From Escherichia phage vB_EcoM_JNE01: a stretch of 64,000 nt of DNA. The stretch lies in sequence record OR670491, one strand, 5' to 3'. The position numbers and the translations under genes are program-made. The notes under the pieces were generated by a model. It worked only from the letters and a program-made list of their open reading frames with translations, was not told the DNA's origin and ran no database searches. This document shows positions 13,462 to 19,180 of the stretch, piece after piece. Each line of letters begins with the position of its first letter. The stretch's first letter is position 1.

Positions 13462-13506
13462 AGCACCTCTAAATAATGTATATAAACATTAATGAGGTGC
13501 TTTTTT
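13462..13506 (+). promoter_or_regulatory. stem-loop (AGCACCTC/GAGGTGCT) enclosing late-type motif TAAATAATGTATATAAAC and pairing the downstream SD
   Basis: 8-bp inverted repeat; the right arm GAGGTG is the only SD for ATG 13507. Confidence 0.35.
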
Positions 13507-14298
13507 ATGTCTTACGATTATATGGGTGGAAACCCTGATGCTCCGAATTTTGATCACAGAGAAAAACTAAAAGATGTGGTCACACAAATGTTAGGTGCAG
13601 GTGCAGTTGAAGTTGAAATCACTGATGGTCAACTCGAAATTGCAATTGATAATGCTGTTGCTAACTACCGTGCATGGAGTTCAGCTTCTAAAGAAGAAGC
13701 ATTTTTAAATATGAAATTTTACGATTCTCAGTCGGTCTATATGTTACCAACTGAAGTTGAAATCGTTAAAAAAATCTACCGCTATGGTAATGGTTATTTG
13801 AGTTCAGGTAGTGGTAACTCCGTTGACCCATTCTCACTTGCATTCACTAACTCATATTTGCTAACATCTGCTCGTAACGCAGGTGGTTATGACTTAACTA
13901 CTTATGACTTCAGTTTCCAGTTCCAAGAACTAGTGGGTCGTATGTTTGGTCGTGAAATTATATTTCAATTTAACCCAATGACTAAGAAACTAGTTATTGA
14001 CCGTGATATTCGCGGTACTGAAGAAGTACTGTTACACGTTTATCACAACATCCCTGAACCGCTCCTATTCATGCGTCAGATGAGCTATCCGTGGCTTCGT
14101 GACTGGACACTATCTGAAGCTATGATTATGCTTGGTCGTAACCGTGCGAAGTTTGCTACGCTACCAGGACCACAAGGGACATTCTCAATGGATGGTGATA
14201 CACTACGTAATGAAGGTCTTCAATTACAAGAACAGTTGAAAGAACGCTTGAAACGTTACGAAGATGGTGCAGATCCACTAGGTATGATTATAGGCTAA
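13507..14298 (+). CDS. hypothetical protein, probably late/virion-associated
   Basis: ATG with GAGGTG SD; late-type motif upstream; ORF track begins at 13492. Confidence 0.5.
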   Translation: MSYDYMGGNPDAPNFDHREKLKDVVTQMLGAGAVEVEITDGQLEIAIDNAVANYRAWSSASKEEAFLNMKFYDSQSVYMLPTEVEIVKKIYRYGNGYLSSGSGNSVDPFSLAFTNSYLLTSARNAGGYDLTTYDFSFQFQELVGRMFGREIIFQFNPMTKKLVIDRDIRGTEEVLLHVYHNIPEPLLFMRQMSYPWLRDWTLSEAMIMLGRNRAKFATLPGPQGTFSMDGDTLRNEGLQLQEQLKERLKRYEDGADPLGMIIG

Positions 14299-14303
14299 TA
14301 AAA

Positions 14304-14329
14304 AAGACTCCTTTATGGGGTCTTTTTTC
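14304..14329 (+). terminator. intrinsic terminator (AAGACTCC/GGGGTCTT)
   Basis: Stem-loop followed by TTTT. Confidence 0.65.
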
Positions 14330-14337
14330 ATATGTGG

Positions 14338-14346
14338 TGATATAAT
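14338..14346 (+). promoter_or_regulatory. extended -10 promoter element (TGaTATAAT)
   Basis: Same GTGATATAATG core as the other early promoters. Confidence 0.35.
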
Positions 14347-14373
14347 GTTTTTAAGTGAATTGAGGAATTTAAA

Positions 14374-14634
14374 ATGGGAACACAAAATTACAGAATTAAC
14401 AAATGTTATGACACATTCAAAGGTTCGGAAAGAATGTGGGAATTTGTCAAAACAGCACTTACTGACGTATTTGATAAAGAACGTTTGCATGTGTGGTGTA
14501 GCATTTATCGTTGTAATGATGTAACCAAATATGCAGTTTACTTAAGATTATTTGATGATGATGAGATTTTGAAGATTATGGTCGAATCAGCAGTTGGTAA
14601 AATTTTAAATGTATCAAAAGACACGGATGATTGA
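14374..14634 (+). CDS. hypothetical protein
   Basis: 86-aa ORF with GAGG SD. Confidence 0.45.
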   Translation: MGTQNYRINKCYDTFKGSERMWEFVKTALTDVFDKERLHVWCSIYRCNDVTKYAVYLRLFDDDEILKIMVESAVGKILNVSKDTDD

Positions 14635-14661
14635 TACAGTACTGAATTACATGGAGAAAAT

Positions 14662-15294
14662 ATGAAAAGGAAAATCGTAGCAGTTAATGGTACAATCGGT
14701 AGTGGTAAGAATGCATTCTCTGAACCATTCATCGATAATGGATTTACACAAATGTCTTTTGCAAAGAATCTCAAGGATTCAGTTGCAGCTATCTTTGGTT
14801 GGGATCGTGAAATGCTGGAAGGTATTACCAAAGAAAGTCGTGCTATCCGTGAAATTCCAGATGCGTACTGGTGTAAAAAACTAGGTCGTGATGATGTATC
14901 ACCGCGTTGGGTACTTCAATATTACGGTACTGACGTAGTTCGTCGTTATCTTAATAATGATATTTGGGTGTACAGTTTAGAGAAATCAATGCAAGACATT
15001 AAAGGTGATATTATCATTAGTGATTGTCGTTTTCCAAATGAATTAACGATGATTCGTGAAAATGGTGGTGTTGTTATTGAAGTACAACGAGAATTGCCAG
15101 AATGGTATAATGATGCATATCGTTATAATGTTCGTGGTGGTGATTTACCAGAAGCACTAAAAACTATTCACCCATCAGAGTGGGCTTGGATTGGTATTAA
15201 TAAACCAGATTATGTGGTTCAGAATAACAGTACCTTAGAAGAACTGAATAAACAAGCAGAATGGATTATTCACGGTATCAAAGACAAAAACTGA
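14662..15294 (+). CDS. deoxynucleoside monophosphate kinase (T4 gp1-like)
   Basis: P-loop VNGTIGSGKN; YYGTDVVRRY, IIISDCRFPNE and C-terminal STLEELNKQAEWII collinear with T4 gp1 as recalled. Confidence 0.7.
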   Translation: MKRKIVAVNGTIGSGKNAFSEPFIDNGFTQMSFAKNLKDSVAAIFGWDREMLEGITKESRAIREIPDAYWCKKLGRDDVSPRWVLQYYGTDVVRRYLNNDIWVYSLEKSMQDIKGDIIISDCRFPNELTMIRENGGVVIEVQRELPEWYNDAYRYNVRGGDLPEALKTIHPSEWAWIGINKPDYVVQNNSTLEELNKQAEWIIHGIKDKN

Positions 15295-15324
15295 TCACTT
15301 TCAATAGCTAACTTTATATCCTCC

Positions 15325-15340
15325 AATAAATAAGACTATA
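15325..15340 (+). promoter_or_regulatory. candidate late-promoter motif (AATAAATAAGACTATA)
   Basis: AAATAA-N-TATA motif shared by several virion-gene upstream regions; T4 late promoters are TATAAATA. Confidence 0.3.
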
Positions 15341-15382
15341 CGAATATATTTCGAATAACCAATTATTTTTGGAGGATTTAAT

Positions 15383-18046: not shown

Positions 18047-18057
18047 TAAAACATTAA

Positions 18058-18083
18058 GGGAGCCGTTTGGCTCCCTTTTTTTA
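18058..18083 (+). terminator. intrinsic terminator (GGGAGCC/GGCTCCC)
   Basis: Stem-loop followed by TTTTTTT. Confidence 0.7.
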
Positions 18084-18128
18084 TTGTAAAAATTAAATAC
18101 AATACAATATTATTATATGGGTAATTAT

Positions 18129-18248
18129 ATGGAAGAAATATTAAAGTCGATATTACAAGAACTTAGCTCCCATGTATCAACTCAAGATGAATCTCTTGAT
18201 TTACTTTATGCAGTACTGGATATAATCAAAGACTGTCGGTATTATTAA
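18129..18248 (+). CDS. small ORF (39 aa) in the sheath-tube spacer
   Basis: ATG ORF with a weak SD. Confidence 0.2.
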   Translation: MEEILKSILQELSSHVSTQDESLDLLYAVLDIIKDCRYY

Positions 18249-18388
18249 AAGTTTCATTGTGTATAAAAATGGGAAATGGTCGAATGGCATCAGGTACTTA
18301 GATAGTACTGGAGAAACAAAATATCTTTATTGCATTAATATTAATTGGTTTCCAGTTGAAGGTTTCAGTCATTAATATTAAGTTGTTT

Positions 18389-18405
18389 AGATAAATAATA
18401 TAAAG
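18389..18405 (+). promoter_or_regulatory. candidate late-promoter motif (AGATAAATAATATAAAG)
   Basis: Shared AT-rich motif upstream of the tube gene. Confidence 0.3.
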
Positions 18406-18432
18406 ATGTCATTCCATGAAAGGAGAATTTCA

Positions 18433-19119
18433 ATGGCTACAATGCTTGATCGATATGGTGTTCCGCTCGCTGGCGGTGGTCGTATCTCTATGAAACAACC
18501 AAAAGCAAAATACAAATTCCGTGTTATTTTCTTTGGTTTCGGTGCTAATGATGACGGTAATATGATTACACTTGATACTAACACTGTTGGTGCGGTATCA
18601 GTATCACATGAAAACGTAACTGTTCATAGCTATAACAGTTCTGCACACTACAAAGGCAAATATACTTGGGATAGTATCGAAGTTGCATTCCGTGATTCAG
18701 TAGGTAACGCTTCTTCAAAAGCTCTTTACAACCAAATGCGTAAAGAATTTAACTACTACAGTCAAGAATCTCGTATGACTGATTCACAATTCAAATTTGA
18801 AATGTGGATTCAGGAACTTGATGGTTCTAACAGTGAAAATGCTACTAACCTATACGAAGGTACACTAAGTACTTGGGTATGTCAGGGTTGCTTTATTGAA
18901 TCCAGTAACTTTGGCGACTGGGATTATTCATCCAGTGAAGCTCAAGTTATCACCATGACTGTTCAACCTGATGGTTGTGCTAAATTGGGTCCAAATGGCG
19001 AAGCGTTCGGTGATGAAGTTAGTGCGTTCGGTAATCCGTCCACCTCTACCTCTATCAGCGGTGCACAAACCAACATTAGTAGTACTACTCTTCCAGATAG
19101 TAACTTCTACGAAAACTAA
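18433..19119 (+). CDS. tail tube protein
   Basis: Directly downstream of sheath; paralog of the next gene (shared PKAKYKFRVI, RDSVGNAS); AAAGGAGA SD. Confidence 0.6.
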   Translation: MATMLDRYGVPLAGGGRISMKQPKAKYKFRVIFFGFGANDDGNMITLDTNTVGAVSVSHENVTVHSYNSSAHYKGKYTWDSIEVAFRDSVGNASSKALYNQMRKEFNYYSQESRMTDSQFKFEMWIQELDGSNSENATNLYEGTLSTWVCQGCFIESSNFGDWDYSSSEAQVITMTVQPDGCAKLGPNGEAFGDEVSAFGNPSTSTSISGAQTNISSTTLPDSNFYEN

Positions 19120-19133
19120 TTTAATAAAGTTTA

Positions 19134-19161
19134 AGCCTCGAACTTGTTCGGGGCTTTTTTT
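19134..19161 (+). terminator. intrinsic terminator (AGCCTCGAAC/GTTCGGGGCT)
   Basis: Stem-loop with one G-U pair, followed by TTTTTTT. Confidence 0.6.
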
Positions 19162-19164
19162 ATG

Positions 19165-19180
19165 CTAAATAAAGTATATA
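19165..19180 (+). promoter_or_regulatory. candidate late-promoter motif (CTAAATAAAGTATATA)
   Basis: Shared motif. Confidence 0.3.

What the first reader, a model, noticed from the sequence alone, without database searches (positions are those of the whole stretch)
13462..19180. Shared AT-rich motif (AAATAA-N-TATA) upstream of virion genes: candidate late promoter
Upstream of the sheath, both tube genes, the 13507 gene, the 32253 fibre gene and both giant fibre genes there is a similar element (for example CTAAATAAAGTATATA, TAAATAATGTATATAAAC, AACTAAATATATAAACAT). None of these genes has a TTGACA/TATAAT promoter, so transcription probably uses a phage-modified polymerase, as T4 late genes do with TATAAATA. 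The minus-strand copies lie at 34236..34263, 41571..41594 and 46604..46630.
Basis: partly seen in the sequence, partly recalled or inferred. Interest (0 to 1): 0.45.

Follow-up and report, generated by a model that had tools for sequence, protein, structure and literature searches.

The report
T4-type late promoters (TAAATA) of jumbo phage
The AT-rich element upstream of the virion genes is real: its invariant core TAAATA is very probably the late promoter read by a phage sigma factor related to T4 gp55, which had already been predicted for sister phages, so this is a solid but ordinary finding.

Summary
The window is a RaK2-like jumbo myophage, 99% identical to Escherichia phage Turkey5. Their invariant core is the hexamer TAAATA, followed 3-5 nt later by a weaker TATA-like stretch.

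- **Frequency:** TAAATA occurs 36 times in the window against 85 expected.
- **Position:** 17 of the 36 copies lie 25-75 nt upstream of a same-strand start codon, against 10% for hexamers of the same composition (p=6e-8).
- **Whole genome:** in Turkey5 it is the most enriched upstream hexamer (p=2e-45). Inside genes it is depleted 3-fold in sense and 6-fold in antisense.
- **Conservation:** it is unchanged at four orthologous promoters in 11 phages of at least four named genera.
- **Gene class:** it precedes virion genes. Non-virion genes in the same window carry TTGACA/TGnTATAAT promoters.
- **Sigma factor:** Turkey5 encodes a gp55-family late sigma about 15 kb beyond the window end. No gp33 homologue was found.

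The same sites were published as predicted "ATAAATA" late promoters in phages CBB and GAP32.

One addition may be new. The neck and sheath promoters sit inside conserved hairpins that mask the ribosome-binding site in read-through RNA, as in T4 gene e.

No transcription start site was found mapped for this clade in the literature searched.

The parts
13470..13475 (+). TAAATA box, 37 nt upstream of the neck / head-tail adaptor gene (13507..14298)
   Evidence: Invariant in 11 phages. Orthologous to CBB Porf_201, CTAAATATGATATA.
13462..13501 (+). Hairpin AGCACCTC (13462-13469) / GAGGTGCT (13494-13501) enclosing the neck promoter. The 3' arm holds the Shine-Dalgarno sequence and is followed by a T-run and the ATG.
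   Evidence: Read-through RNA folds at -17.1 kcal/mol (z=-4.4); RNA starting inside the loop folds at -1.5. The hairpin is kept in all 11 phages with different arm sequences, CCTC:GAGG versus CCCC:GGGG.
15327..15332 (+). TAAATA box, 56 nt upstream of the tail sheath gene (15383..18046)
   Evidence: Orthologous to CBB Porf_204, ATAAATAACATTAT.
15318..15377 (+). Anti-SD arm ATCCTCCAA (15318-15326), directly 5' of the box, pairs with TTGGAGGAT (15369-15377), which holds the sheath Shine-Dalgarno sequence.
   Evidence: Read-through RNA folds at -23.3 kcal/mol (z=-5.1); late-start RNA folds at -5.5. The SD is paired in all 11 phages. Of the four variant 5' arms, three carry a change that keeps a G-U pair and one (XbC2) breaks a pair.
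18392..18397 (+). TAAATA box, 41 nt upstream of tail tube gene 18433..19119
   Evidence: CBB Porf_205.
19166..19171 (+). TAAATA box, 41 nt upstream of tail tube gene 19207..19983. It directly follows the terminator at 19133-19156.
   Evidence: CBB Porf_206.
34252..34257 (-). TAAATA box, 40 nt upstream of structural gene 32253..34217. It follows the terminator at 34294-34273.
   Evidence: The gene is the orthologue of the CBB gp224 structural protein. CBB Porf_224 is listed.
41585..41590 (-). TAAATA box, 54 nt upstream of giant fibre gene 35174..41536. A second copy lies at 41631-41626, next to the terminator at 41666-41640.
46617..46622 (-). TAAATA box, 61 nt upstream of giant fibre gene 41675..46561. 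It follows the terminator at 46666-46639.
   Evidence: The gene is related to the CBB gp226 fibre.
22109..22114 (+). TAAATA box, 37 nt upstream of 22146..22679 (orthologue of CBB gp210, a virion protein)
22634..22639 (+). TAAATA box, 49 nt upstream of 22683..23228. It lies inside the end of the preceding gene.
24737..24742 (+). TAAATA box, 39 nt upstream of 24776..25783 (orthologue of CBB gp213, a virion protein)
50908..50913 (-). TAAATA box, 44 nt upstream of tail protein gene 49742..50869 (divergent pair, minus side)
50944..50949 (+). TAAATA box, 38 nt upstream of structural gene 50982..51479 (divergent pair, plus side)
52071..52076 (+). TAAATA box, 44 nt upstream of virion gene 52115..53215
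56589..56594 (-). TAAATA box, 38 nt upstream of virion gene 55066..56556. It sits back to back with a consensus sigma-70 promoter (56600-56627, +) for the ClpA-like gene.
   Evidence: Read-through RNA folds at -14.8 and late-start RNA at -3.3 kcal/mol.
11911..11916 (+). TAAATA box, 52 nt upstream of small gene 11963..12202. It is also embedded in an SD-pairing hairpin.
   Evidence: Read-through RNA folds at -21.1 and late-start RNA at -5.5 kcal/mol. The function of the gene is unknown.
1127..1132 (+). TAAATA box, 34 nt upstream of 1161..1601 (annotated DpsA-like in Turkey5). Weaker candidate.
18094..18099 (+). TAAATA box, 35 nt upstream of small ORF 18129..18248, after the terminator at 18056-18077. 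Weaker candidate.

Best explanation
TAAATA is the single recognition element of this phage's late promoters. It is a -10-type box with no -35 partner.

**Proposed mechanism (inferred).**
1. Late in infection the host RNA polymerase core carries a phage sigma of the T4 gp55 family.
2. This holoenzyme melts DNA at TAAATA.
3. By analogy with T4, it starts about 6-8 nt downstream, in an AT-rich stretch that is often TATA.
4. The resulting leaders are about 20-50 nt long.

**Arrangement of the late units.** Most of them are insulated from upstream transcription by an intrinsic terminator placed directly 5' of the box.

**A second gate at the neck and sheath genes** (probably also at 11963 and 56556). 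The box lies inside or directly after the 5' arm of a hairpin whose 3' arm contains the Shine-Dalgarno sequence. Transcripts reading through from upstream early or middle promoters would be translationally silent. At the neck gene they may also terminate. Transcripts started at TAAATA lack the 5' arm and would be translated.

**What is shown.** The motif, its placement, its depletion elsewhere, its conservation, its link to virion genes, the presence of a gp55-family gene in the near-identical genome, and the predicted and conserved hairpins.

**What is inferred.** The start sites, the late timing, which sigma reads the box, and the translational gating.
For: **Frequency and position in the window.**
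- 36 copies against 85.5 +/- 8.8 expected.
- 47% lie 25-75 nt upstream of a same-strand start, against 10% for same-composition hexamers (p=6e-8).

**Whole Turkey5 genome** (99.2% identical over window 13000-20000; about 99% over most of the window).
- 179 copies against 400-585 for same-composition hexamers, with 40% in the upstream zone.
- Top of all hexamers for upstream enrichment, p=2e-45, ahead of TATAAT and TTGACA.
- Distances to the start codon peak at 30-45 nt.
- Inside genes: 40 sense copies against 132 +/- 9, and 19 antisense against 114 +/- 9, in synonymous-codon shuffles.
- Only 2 sites in the first 75 kb (188 called genes, mostly small, in the region that corresponds in layout to the early region described for CBB). 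36 sites in the 100-225 kb stretch, which holds the virion, replication and nucleotide-metabolism genes (131 genes).

**Conservation.** The hexamer is 100% conserved at 4 orthologous promoters in 11 phages (named genera Asteriusvirus, Alcyoneusvirus, Mimasvirus and Eneladusvirus, plus unclassified phages). Flanking positions fall to 25-65% identity.

**Promoter shape.** There is no information at the -35 position (0.06 bits or less).

**Downstream genes.** 13 of the 17 well-placed sites precede orthologues of CBB virion or structural proteins. The ATPase, DUF2201 and ClpA-like genes instead have TTGACA-N16/17-TGnTATAAT promoters.

**Sigma factor.**
- Turkey5 187400..188239 (279 aa) matches phrog_234 'late sigma transcription factor' at 1e-16. 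T4 gp55 matches the same family at 3e-69.
- Reciprocally, T4 gp55 hits the RaK2-like family phrog_12791 at 5e-7. BLASTP gives 25% identity over 121 aa.
- The gene sits next to gp47/gp46-like nuclease genes, as gene 55 does in T4.

**Literature.**
- The CBB paper predicts ATAAATA late promoters at the orthologous sites and a gp55-like sigma (PMC5259590).
- Relaxed versions of TATAAATA are known: NATAAATA in cyanophage S-PM2 (PMC2984593).

**Hairpins.**. The T4 precedent in genes e, soc, 49 and I-TevI is described in PMC3014915.
Against: - No 5' end, timing or genetic data for this clade turned up in the papers searched. PA5oct RNA-seq reports only TATAATA/TTGAC promoters.
- The exact T4 octamer TATAAATA is absent from the window. 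It accounts for only 8 of the 71 genome sites.
- No gp33 homologue was detected with T4 gp33 or with an HMM of 44 gp33 relatives.
- The annotated sliding clamp has no Pfam or PDB sequence match.
- The sigma gene lies outside the window and was seen only in the near-identical record.
- The phage also encodes an RpoD/RpoS-like sigma, which could in principle read the box.
- Some virion genes, for example 34309..35100, have no TAAATA in front.
- A few TAAATA boxes precede genes of unknown class.
- Gene starts for the genome-wide statistics come from my own simple gene caller. It reproduced 47 of 52 annotated starts.
Confidence: 0.8

Rival explanations
1. TAAATA is a -10-only promoter box read by a sigma-70-family factor rather than by the gp55-like protein. 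That factor would be host sigma-70 or the phage's own RpoD/RpoS-like sigma (Turkey5 303905..304867).
For: The phage encodes such a sigma (CBB_513 in PMC5259590). TAAATA is AT-rich like a -10 hexamer. No experiment assigns the box to either sigma.
Against: - TAAATA matches TATAAT at only 3 of 6 positions and lacks the final T.
- No TGn extension or -35 element accompanies it.
- A separate class with TTGACA and TGnTATAAT is obvious in the same window, in front of other genes.
- The box resembles the gp55 target TATAAATA, and a gp55-family gene is present.
Confidence: 0.1
2. The box acts at the RNA level, not as a promoter. It would be, for example, a processing site, a binding site for a translational regulator, or part of a leader element.
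For: The box is fixed in sense orientation 30-60 nt before start codons. It often lies within predicted leader structures.
Against: - The hexamer is purged even more strongly from the antisense strand of genes (19 against 114 expected). An RNA signal would not explain that.
- The box often directly follows a terminator, where little upstream RNA would exist.
- In the neck and sheath leaders it lies at or in the 5' arm of an SD-masking hairpin. That arrangement only makes sense if productive RNAs start downstream of it.
Confidence: 0.05
3. The resemblance is chance similarity among AT-rich intergenic regions.
For: The genome is 36% G+C, and intergenic DNA is richer still in A+T.
Against: - Same-composition hexamers do not behave this way.
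- Enrichment has p=2e-45.
- The hexamer is identical at all 44 orthologous sites examined, across genera.
Confidence: 0.01

Closest known systems
Predicted 'promoter 3' (ATAAATA) of the RaK2-like phages Pectobacterium phage CBB and Cronobacter phage GAP32 (PMC5259590, Table S7)
   Same: These are the same element at orthologous positions. CBB Porf_201 (neck), Porf_204 (sheath), Porf_205 and Porf_206 (tube), Porf_224 and Porf_226 correspond to the window sites. The same gp55-like sigma is encoded nearby.
   Different: The published motif came from MEME run on the upstream regions of structural genes only, and it allows mismatches (for example ATGAATA, CTAAATT). Here the core is narrowed to an invariant TAAATA, with genome-wide depletion, cross-genus conservation and the hairpin context added. 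Neither study has transcript data.
Bacteriophage T4 late promoters (TATAAATA, read by gp55 with gp33 and the gp45 clamp)
   Same: A single AT-rich -10-type box with no -35 element, placed before virion genes. A gp55-family sigma is encoded next to gp47/gp46 homologues.
   Different: - The first two bases of the octamer are not required here. The window has no TATAAATA.
- The sigma is 279 aa, with an insertion of about 115 aa after the N-terminal motif.
- No gp33 was detected.
- Clamp dependence is unknown.
T4 genes e, soc, 49 and I-TevI: a ribosome-binding site masked in early transcripts, with a late promoter inside the hairpin (PMC3014915)
   Same: At the neck and sheath genes the Shine-Dalgarno sequence forms the 3' arm of a stable hairpin. 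The late box lies in or directly after the 5' arm, so late RNAs would lack the inhibitory arm.
   Different: Here the arrangement controls major structural genes (neck, sheath) rather than lysozyme or a homing endonuclease. It is conserved over at least four named genera of jumbo phages. It is predicted only. At the neck gene the hairpin plus T-run also looks like a terminator.
Relaxed late-promoter consensus of distant T4-like phages (NATAAATA in cyanophage S-PM2; PMC2984593)
   Same: It shows that gp55-family promoters tolerate loss of the first position of the octamer.
   Different: Here position -1 is also free: A 35, C 15, T 13, G 8 among 71 sites.

Membership tests
T4-type (gp55-dependent) late promoter | Octamer TATAAATA as the recognition element | tested here: not met
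   The window has no copy of TATAAATA. Only 8 of the 71 well-placed genome sites have it. The shared part is the 3' hexamer TAAATA, invariant in all sites and all 11 phages.
T4-type (gp55-dependent) late promoter | No -35 element; a -10-type box alone | tested here: met
   Information content is 0.06 bits or less at positions -25..-14 relative to the box, and there is no TGn extension.
T4-type (gp55-dependent) late promoter | The phage encodes a gp55-family sigma | tested here: met
   Not in the window. In the near-identical Turkey5 record at 187400..188239: phrog_234 at 1e-16 (T4 gp55 hits the same family at 3e-69), a reciprocal hit at 5e-7, and BLASTP at 8e-4. Synteny with the gp47/gp46-like genes supports it.
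T4-type (gp55-dependent) late promoter | gp33 co-activator present | tested here: inconclusive
   phmmer with T4 gp33, and an HMM of 44 gp33 relatives, against the six-frame ORFs of Turkey5 gave a best E of 0.6-0.9. The top phmmer candidates were checked and are not gp33. The gp33 profile covers only close T4 relatives. Iyer et al. state that group 2 jumbo phages have an orthologue. The CBB paper found none.
T4-type (gp55-dependent) late promoter | gp45-type sliding clamp as activator | tested here: inconclusive
   Turkey5 annotates a sliding clamp at 210694..211425 and clamp-loader subunits. The protein has no Pfam or PDB sequence match. No structure was predicted. Coupling to transcription cannot be tested here.
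T4-type (gp55-dependent) late promoter | Placed before late (virion) genes | tested here: met
   13 of the 17 well-placed window sites precede orthologues of proteins annotated as virion or structural in CBB. In the genome, 2 sites fall in the first 75 kb (188 genes) against 36 in the 100-225 kb stretch that holds the virion genes (131 genes).
T4-type (gp55-dependent) late promoter | Primary 5' ends a few nt downstream of the box, appearing late and dependent on replication | not testable with these tools
   No transcript data are available. None turned up in the literature searches.
RaK2-like 'promoter 3' (CBB/GAP32 ATAAATA) | The same motif at orthologous positions upstream of structural genes | tested here: met
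   The CBB Table S7 entries Porf_201, 204, 205 and 206 are the sites aligned.
Late promoter nested in an SD-masking hairpin (T4 gene e type) | The Shine-Dalgarno sequence is paired in read-through RNA and free in RNA started at the late promoter | tested here: met
   By prediction only. Neck: -17.1 against -1.5 kcal/mol. Sheath: -23.3 against -5.5 kcal/mol. z-scores are -4.4 and -5.1. The SD is paired in all 11 phages for both genes. The neck arms covary (CCTC:GAGG to CCCC:GGGG).
Late promoter nested in an SD-masking hairpin (T4 gene e type) | Upstream early or middle transcription that reads into the gene | tested here: inconclusive
   Extended -10 boxes (TGnTATAAT) lie at 14338 and 15103, upstream of the sheath gene, with no terminator between them and it. 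This is sequence evidence only.
Sigma-70 promoter | TTGACA-N16-18-TATAAT | tested here: not met
   No match of 10/12 or better lies directly upstream of the genes named. Perfect matches occur elsewhere in the window, before non-virion genes.

The most novel reading that the evidence does not exclude
The RaK2-like late system may be a gp33-independent variant of T4 late transcription. In this reading, a gp55-family sigma carrying an insertion of about 115 aa recognises only the hexamer TAAATA and needs no separate co-activator. Promoter-in-hairpin gating would then be a general, clade-wide second layer that keeps major tail genes silent until the late sigma appears. The evidence does not exclude this. 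No gp33 was found, the insertion shows no similarity to gp33, and the hairpins are conserved across genera.
Probability: 0.15. Interest if true: 0.5.

Novelty: new member of a known kind. Interest (0 to 1): 0.3.

Why it matters
- **Annotation.** It gives a simple, testable rule for annotating late transcription units in RaK2-like jumbo phages: TAAATA 30-60 nt before a start codon, often directly after a terminator.
- **Promoter recognition.** It shows that the gp55-type promoter has shrunk to a hexamer in this clade, and that the genome is purged of stray copies in both orientations.
- **Regulation.** It suggests that neck and sheath synthesis is gated twice, by promoter class and by masking of the ribosome-binding site.
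- **Practical use.** For engineering these phages, or for expressing their virion proteins, the box and the hairpins mark where late expression is controlled.

It does not change the general picture, because the promoter was already predicted for sister phages.

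Tried and rejected
- **gp33 search.** phmmer with T4 gp33, and an HMM built from 44 relatives found, gave nothing significant in Turkey5. The best phmmer candidates were checked: one belongs to a PHROG family of unknown function and the other is an Rz-like spanin.
- **gp33 against the sigma insertion.** hhalign of a gp33 alignment against the gp55-like protein, to ask whether its insertion is a fused gp33, gave a probability of 0.4%. Rejected.
- **Pfam and PDB sequence searches.** Neither the gp55-like protein nor the annotated clamp gave a match. 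Only PHROGs were informative.
- **RNAalifold on MAFFT alignments of the leaders.**
  - The neck alignment was misaligned and gave no structure.
  - The sheath alignment had two rows shifted by one column, which inflated the 'broken' pair counts.
  - I replaced this with per-sequence folding.
- **Supplements.** The supplement of Iyer et al. is not held.
- **Literature on transcript mapping.** Searches for mapped transcripts in this clade found only PA5oct RNA-seq, which reports no TAAATA class. The RaK2 and Sharanji papers do not discuss promoters.
- **TAA stop codon as a cause.** I considered that the TAA inside the box might explain its position at gene ends. This fails because the box is conserved in purely intergenic DNA and at variable distance from the upstream stop.

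Full report
**What the window is.** Bases 13000-20000 match Escherichia phage Turkey5 (PQ471516.1, 351 kb) at 99.2% identity. They match the Asteriusvirus phages PBECO4, 121Q and phAPEC6 at about 82%. Weaker matches reach RaK2, K64-1, GAP32, CBB, Serratia phage BF, Yersinia phage fHe-Yen9-04 and others. The whole window is collinear with Turkey5, apart from a patch at 5923-8309 that is only 78% identical. So this is a RaK2-like jumbo myophage. The annotated gene order runs neck, dNMP kinase, sheath, three tube genes, virion proteins, an ATPase cluster and thymidylate synthase. Fibre, tail and baseplate genes then follow on both strands.

**The observation.** What the sites share is the hexamer TAAATA, not 'AAATAA-N-TATA'.
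- Plus strand: TAAATA starts at 13470, 15327, 18392 and 19166.
- Minus strand: it occupies 34257-34252, 41590-41585 and 46622-46617.
- The preceding base is C or A.
- The following bases vary (AATG, AAGA, AATA, AAAG, CATA, TATA).
- A TATA-like stretch usually follows 3-5 nt later.

**Is it more than chance?** Three tests say yes.
1. *Frequency.* The window has 36 copies on both strands, against 85.5 +/- 8.8 in dinucleotide-preserving shuffles.
2. *Position in the window.* I curated 67 genes by hand. 17 of the 36 copies start 25-75 nt upstream of a same-strand start codon. That zone holds 2.7% of positions. For the other 14 hexamers made of four A and two T the figure is 109 of 1047, so the odds ratio is 7.7 and p=6e-8.
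3. *The whole genome.* I assembled all of Turkey5 from annotated stretches. I called genes with a simple caller that reproduced 47 of 52 annotated starts.
   - TAAATA occurs 179 times, against 400-585 for its permutations. 71 copies (40%) lie in the upstream zone, against 4-14% for the permutations.
   - A blind scan of all hexamers ranks it first for upstream enrichment at p=2e-45. TATAAT follows at 7e-32 and TTGACA at 2e-10.
   - Distances to the start codon peak at 30-45 nt.
   - Inside genes, leaving out the first 30 and last 90 nt, there are 40 sense copies against 132 +/- 9 and 19 antisense copies against 114 +/- 9 in synonymous-codon shuffles.

It fails clearly: the genome avoids this hexamer wherever it is not in front of a gene.

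Among the 71 well-placed sites, TATA begins 6-12 nt after the first T in 31 cases. Among the remaining 108 copies it does so in 10 (p=1.4e-7). The offset peaks at 9-11. The position-specific counts show:
- weak A/T preference at +9..+13;
- a T-rich stretch at -13..-5;
- no information at the place a -35 element would occupy.

The T-rich stretch is largely the tail of intrinsic terminators that sit directly 5' of many boxes. These are at 18056-18077 and 19133-19156 on the plus strand, and at 34294-34273, 41666-41640 and 46666-46639 on the minus strand.

**Conservation.** I fetched the orthologous region from ten relatives:
- PBECO4 and EJP2 (Asteriusvirus);
- RaK2 (Alcyoneusvirus);
- CBB, GAP32 and XbC2 (Mimasvirus);
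- Serratia phage BF and fHe-Yen9-04 (Eneladusvirus);
- Munch and Hallingskeid (no genus given).

TAAATA is present upstream of the neck, sheath and both tube genes in all eleven phages, 44 of 44 sites. Anchored on the box, pairwise identity is 100% across the six bases. In most flanking columns it falls to 25-65%.

**Which genes carry it.** tblastn with CBB proteins confirms orthology. 13 of the 17 well-placed sites precede orthologues of proteins annotated as virion or structural in CBB. These are the neck, the sheath, two tube proteins, gp210, gp213, gp224, the two fibre genes, gp228, gp229, gp231 and gp234.

The non-virion genes embedded in the same region have a different promoter class.
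- TTGACA-N16/17-TATAAT, usually with TGn, sits before the ATPase cluster (26567-26594 and 26659-26686) and before the ClpA-like gene (56600-56627).
- TGnTATAAT occurs 17 times against 5 expected.

Along the genome there are 2 TAAATA sites in the first 75 kb (188 called genes). There are 36 in the 100-225 kb stretch, which holds the virion, replication and nucleotide-metabolism genes (131 genes). Nine more stand in front of the RCC1-like repeat genes at 331-346 kb.

**The polymerase factor.** The window has no sigma gene. In Turkey5, about 15.6 kb past the window end, a 279-aa protein is encoded next to gp47-like and gp46-like nuclease genes. It is the syntenic counterpart of CBB gp244, annotated 'sigma factor for late transcription'.
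- It matches phrog_234 'late sigma transcription factor' at 1e-16 over residues 141-262. T4 gp55 matches that family at 3e-69.
- T4 gp55 in turn matches the RaK2-like family phrog_12791 at 5e-7.
- BLASTP gives 25% identity over 121 residues.
- T4 gene 55 also lies a few genes from genes 47 and 46 on the same strand.
- The N-terminal 25 residues also resemble those of gp55. About 115 residues are inserted before the conserved core.

I found no gp33 homologue. The insertion does not resemble gp33. The annotated sliding clamp has no Pfam or PDB sequence match. The phage also has an RpoD/RpoS-like sigma. That sigma more likely serves the TTGACA/TATAAT or middle class.

The neck promoter lies in the loop of a hairpin, and the sheath promoter directly after the 5' arm of one. 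In both, the 3' arm is the ribosome-binding site.
- *Neck.* AGCACCTC (13462-13469) pairs with GAGGTGCT (13494-13501), followed by TTTTT and the ATG. The read-through RNA folds at -17.1 kcal/mol (z=-4.4). An RNA beginning 12 nt after the first T of the box folds at -1.5.
- *Sheath.* ATCCTCCAA (15318-15326) directly precedes the box and pairs with TTGGAGGAT (15369-15377). The values are -23.3 kcal/mol (z=-5.1) and -5.5.
- *Other phages.* In all eleven phages the MFE fold of the read-through leader pairs the Shine-Dalgarno bases, at -13 to -26 kcal/mol. The late-start RNA does not, at -1 to -5.5.
- *Covariation.* The neck arms differ between clades while keeping pairing. The pairs are AGCACCTC/GAGGTGCT, GCACCCCTA/TAGGGGTGC, ACCCCTAAA/TTTAGGGGT and AGCACCTCTAAA/TTTAGAGGTGCT. 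This includes the double change CCTC:GAGG to CCCC:GGGG. The sheath 3' arm is invariant. Of the four variant 5' arms, three carry a change that keeps a G-U pair and one (XbC2) breaks a pair.
- *Further candidates.* Two other window sites, 11911 and 56594, show the same pattern.
- *Precedent.* T4 uses this design at genes e, soc, 49 and I-TevI. There, early read-through RNA is untranslatable and late promoters inside the structure give translatable RNA (PMC3014915).
- *Source of read-through.* Upstream extended -10 boxes at 14338 and 15103 could supply such transcripts for the sheath gene.

**Comparison with what is known.** Buttimer et al. (PMC5259590) ran MEME on the upstream regions of CBB structural genes. 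They reported 35 copies of a motif with consensus ATAAATA, noted it in GAP32 as well, compared it with the T4 late promoter, and pointed to a gp55-like sigma. Their Table S7 lists Porf_201, 204, 205, 206, 224 and 226. These are the orthologues of the sites in this finding.

Here it extends to another member of the group. What this analysis adds:
- the hexamer core;
- the purge from both strands of coding sequence;
- the cross-genus footprint;
- the separation from sigma-70-type promoters within one region;
- the nested-hairpin arrangement.

I found no transcription start mapping for this clade.

**Verdict.** I put 0.8 on 'late promoter read by the gp55-family sigma'. The residue goes mostly to 'promoter, but read by another sigma'. 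This is a new member of a known kind, and interest is modest.

Noticed in passing
window 1-700: A 700-nt stretch with no ORF longer than 72 aa, unannotated in Turkey5. It begins with an extended -10-like GTGCTATAAT (28-37) and ends in a terminator (543-566). RNA 45-570 folds at -141 kcal/mol, z=-4.2. There is no tRNA or Rfam match. It may be a phage non-coding RNA of about 520 nt.
   Followed up: partly
window 47585-49733 (minus strand), indel at 49367: The window has two overlapping ORFs, 47585..49378 and 49302..49733, where Turkey5 has a single 2142-nt gene. The cause is one extra base at 49367: CTCCGTCCG against CTCC-TCCG on the plus strand. This could be a frameshift mutation, a sequencing error or recoding.
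   Followed up: partly
window 26543-26855: A 313-nt intergenic region with two near-identical consensus sigma-70 promoters (TTGACA-N16-TGTGATATAAT at 26567-26594 and 26659-26686), each preceded by an A-rich tract. A third TGGTATAAT lies at 26809. The region sits upstream of the ATPase gene 26856..28187, inside the virion gene block.
   Followed up: partly
window 56589-56627: A late TAAATA box (minus strand, for virion gene 55066..56556) and a perfect sigma-70 promoter (plus strand, for the ClpA-like gene 56668..58953) sit back to back within 40 bp. They could compete for polymerase during the early-to-late switch.
   Followed up: no
window 39477-41552 and 45012-46577: The two giant fibre genes share 75-80% identical 5' regions of about 1.4-2 kb, and nearly identical leaders (GGAGGGAACTA-ATG) behind their TAAATA boxes. 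They look like paralogues that differ in their distal parts.
   Followed up: no
window 5923-8309: This patch is only 78% identical to Turkey5, where the rest of the window is about 99% identical. It covers the endolysin-region genes and suggests a mosaic exchange. Window 5910-6123 is a 214-nt gap without a called gene.
   Followed up: no
Turkey5 record 331-346 kb (loci L023, outside the window): Nine tandem RCC1/HERC1-like repeat genes on the minus strand are each preceded by a terminator, then TAAATAtagtataatgaataaaggagg. They form a very uniform set of late units, perhaps the hair or whisker proteins of this phage group.
   Followed up: no
Turkey5 record 187400-188239 (L015 15585-16424): The gp55-family sigma is 279 aa, against 185 aa in T4. 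It has an insertion of about 115 aa between the conserved N-terminal motif and the core. The insertion has no Pfam or PDB sequence match and no similarity to gp33.
   Followed up: partly
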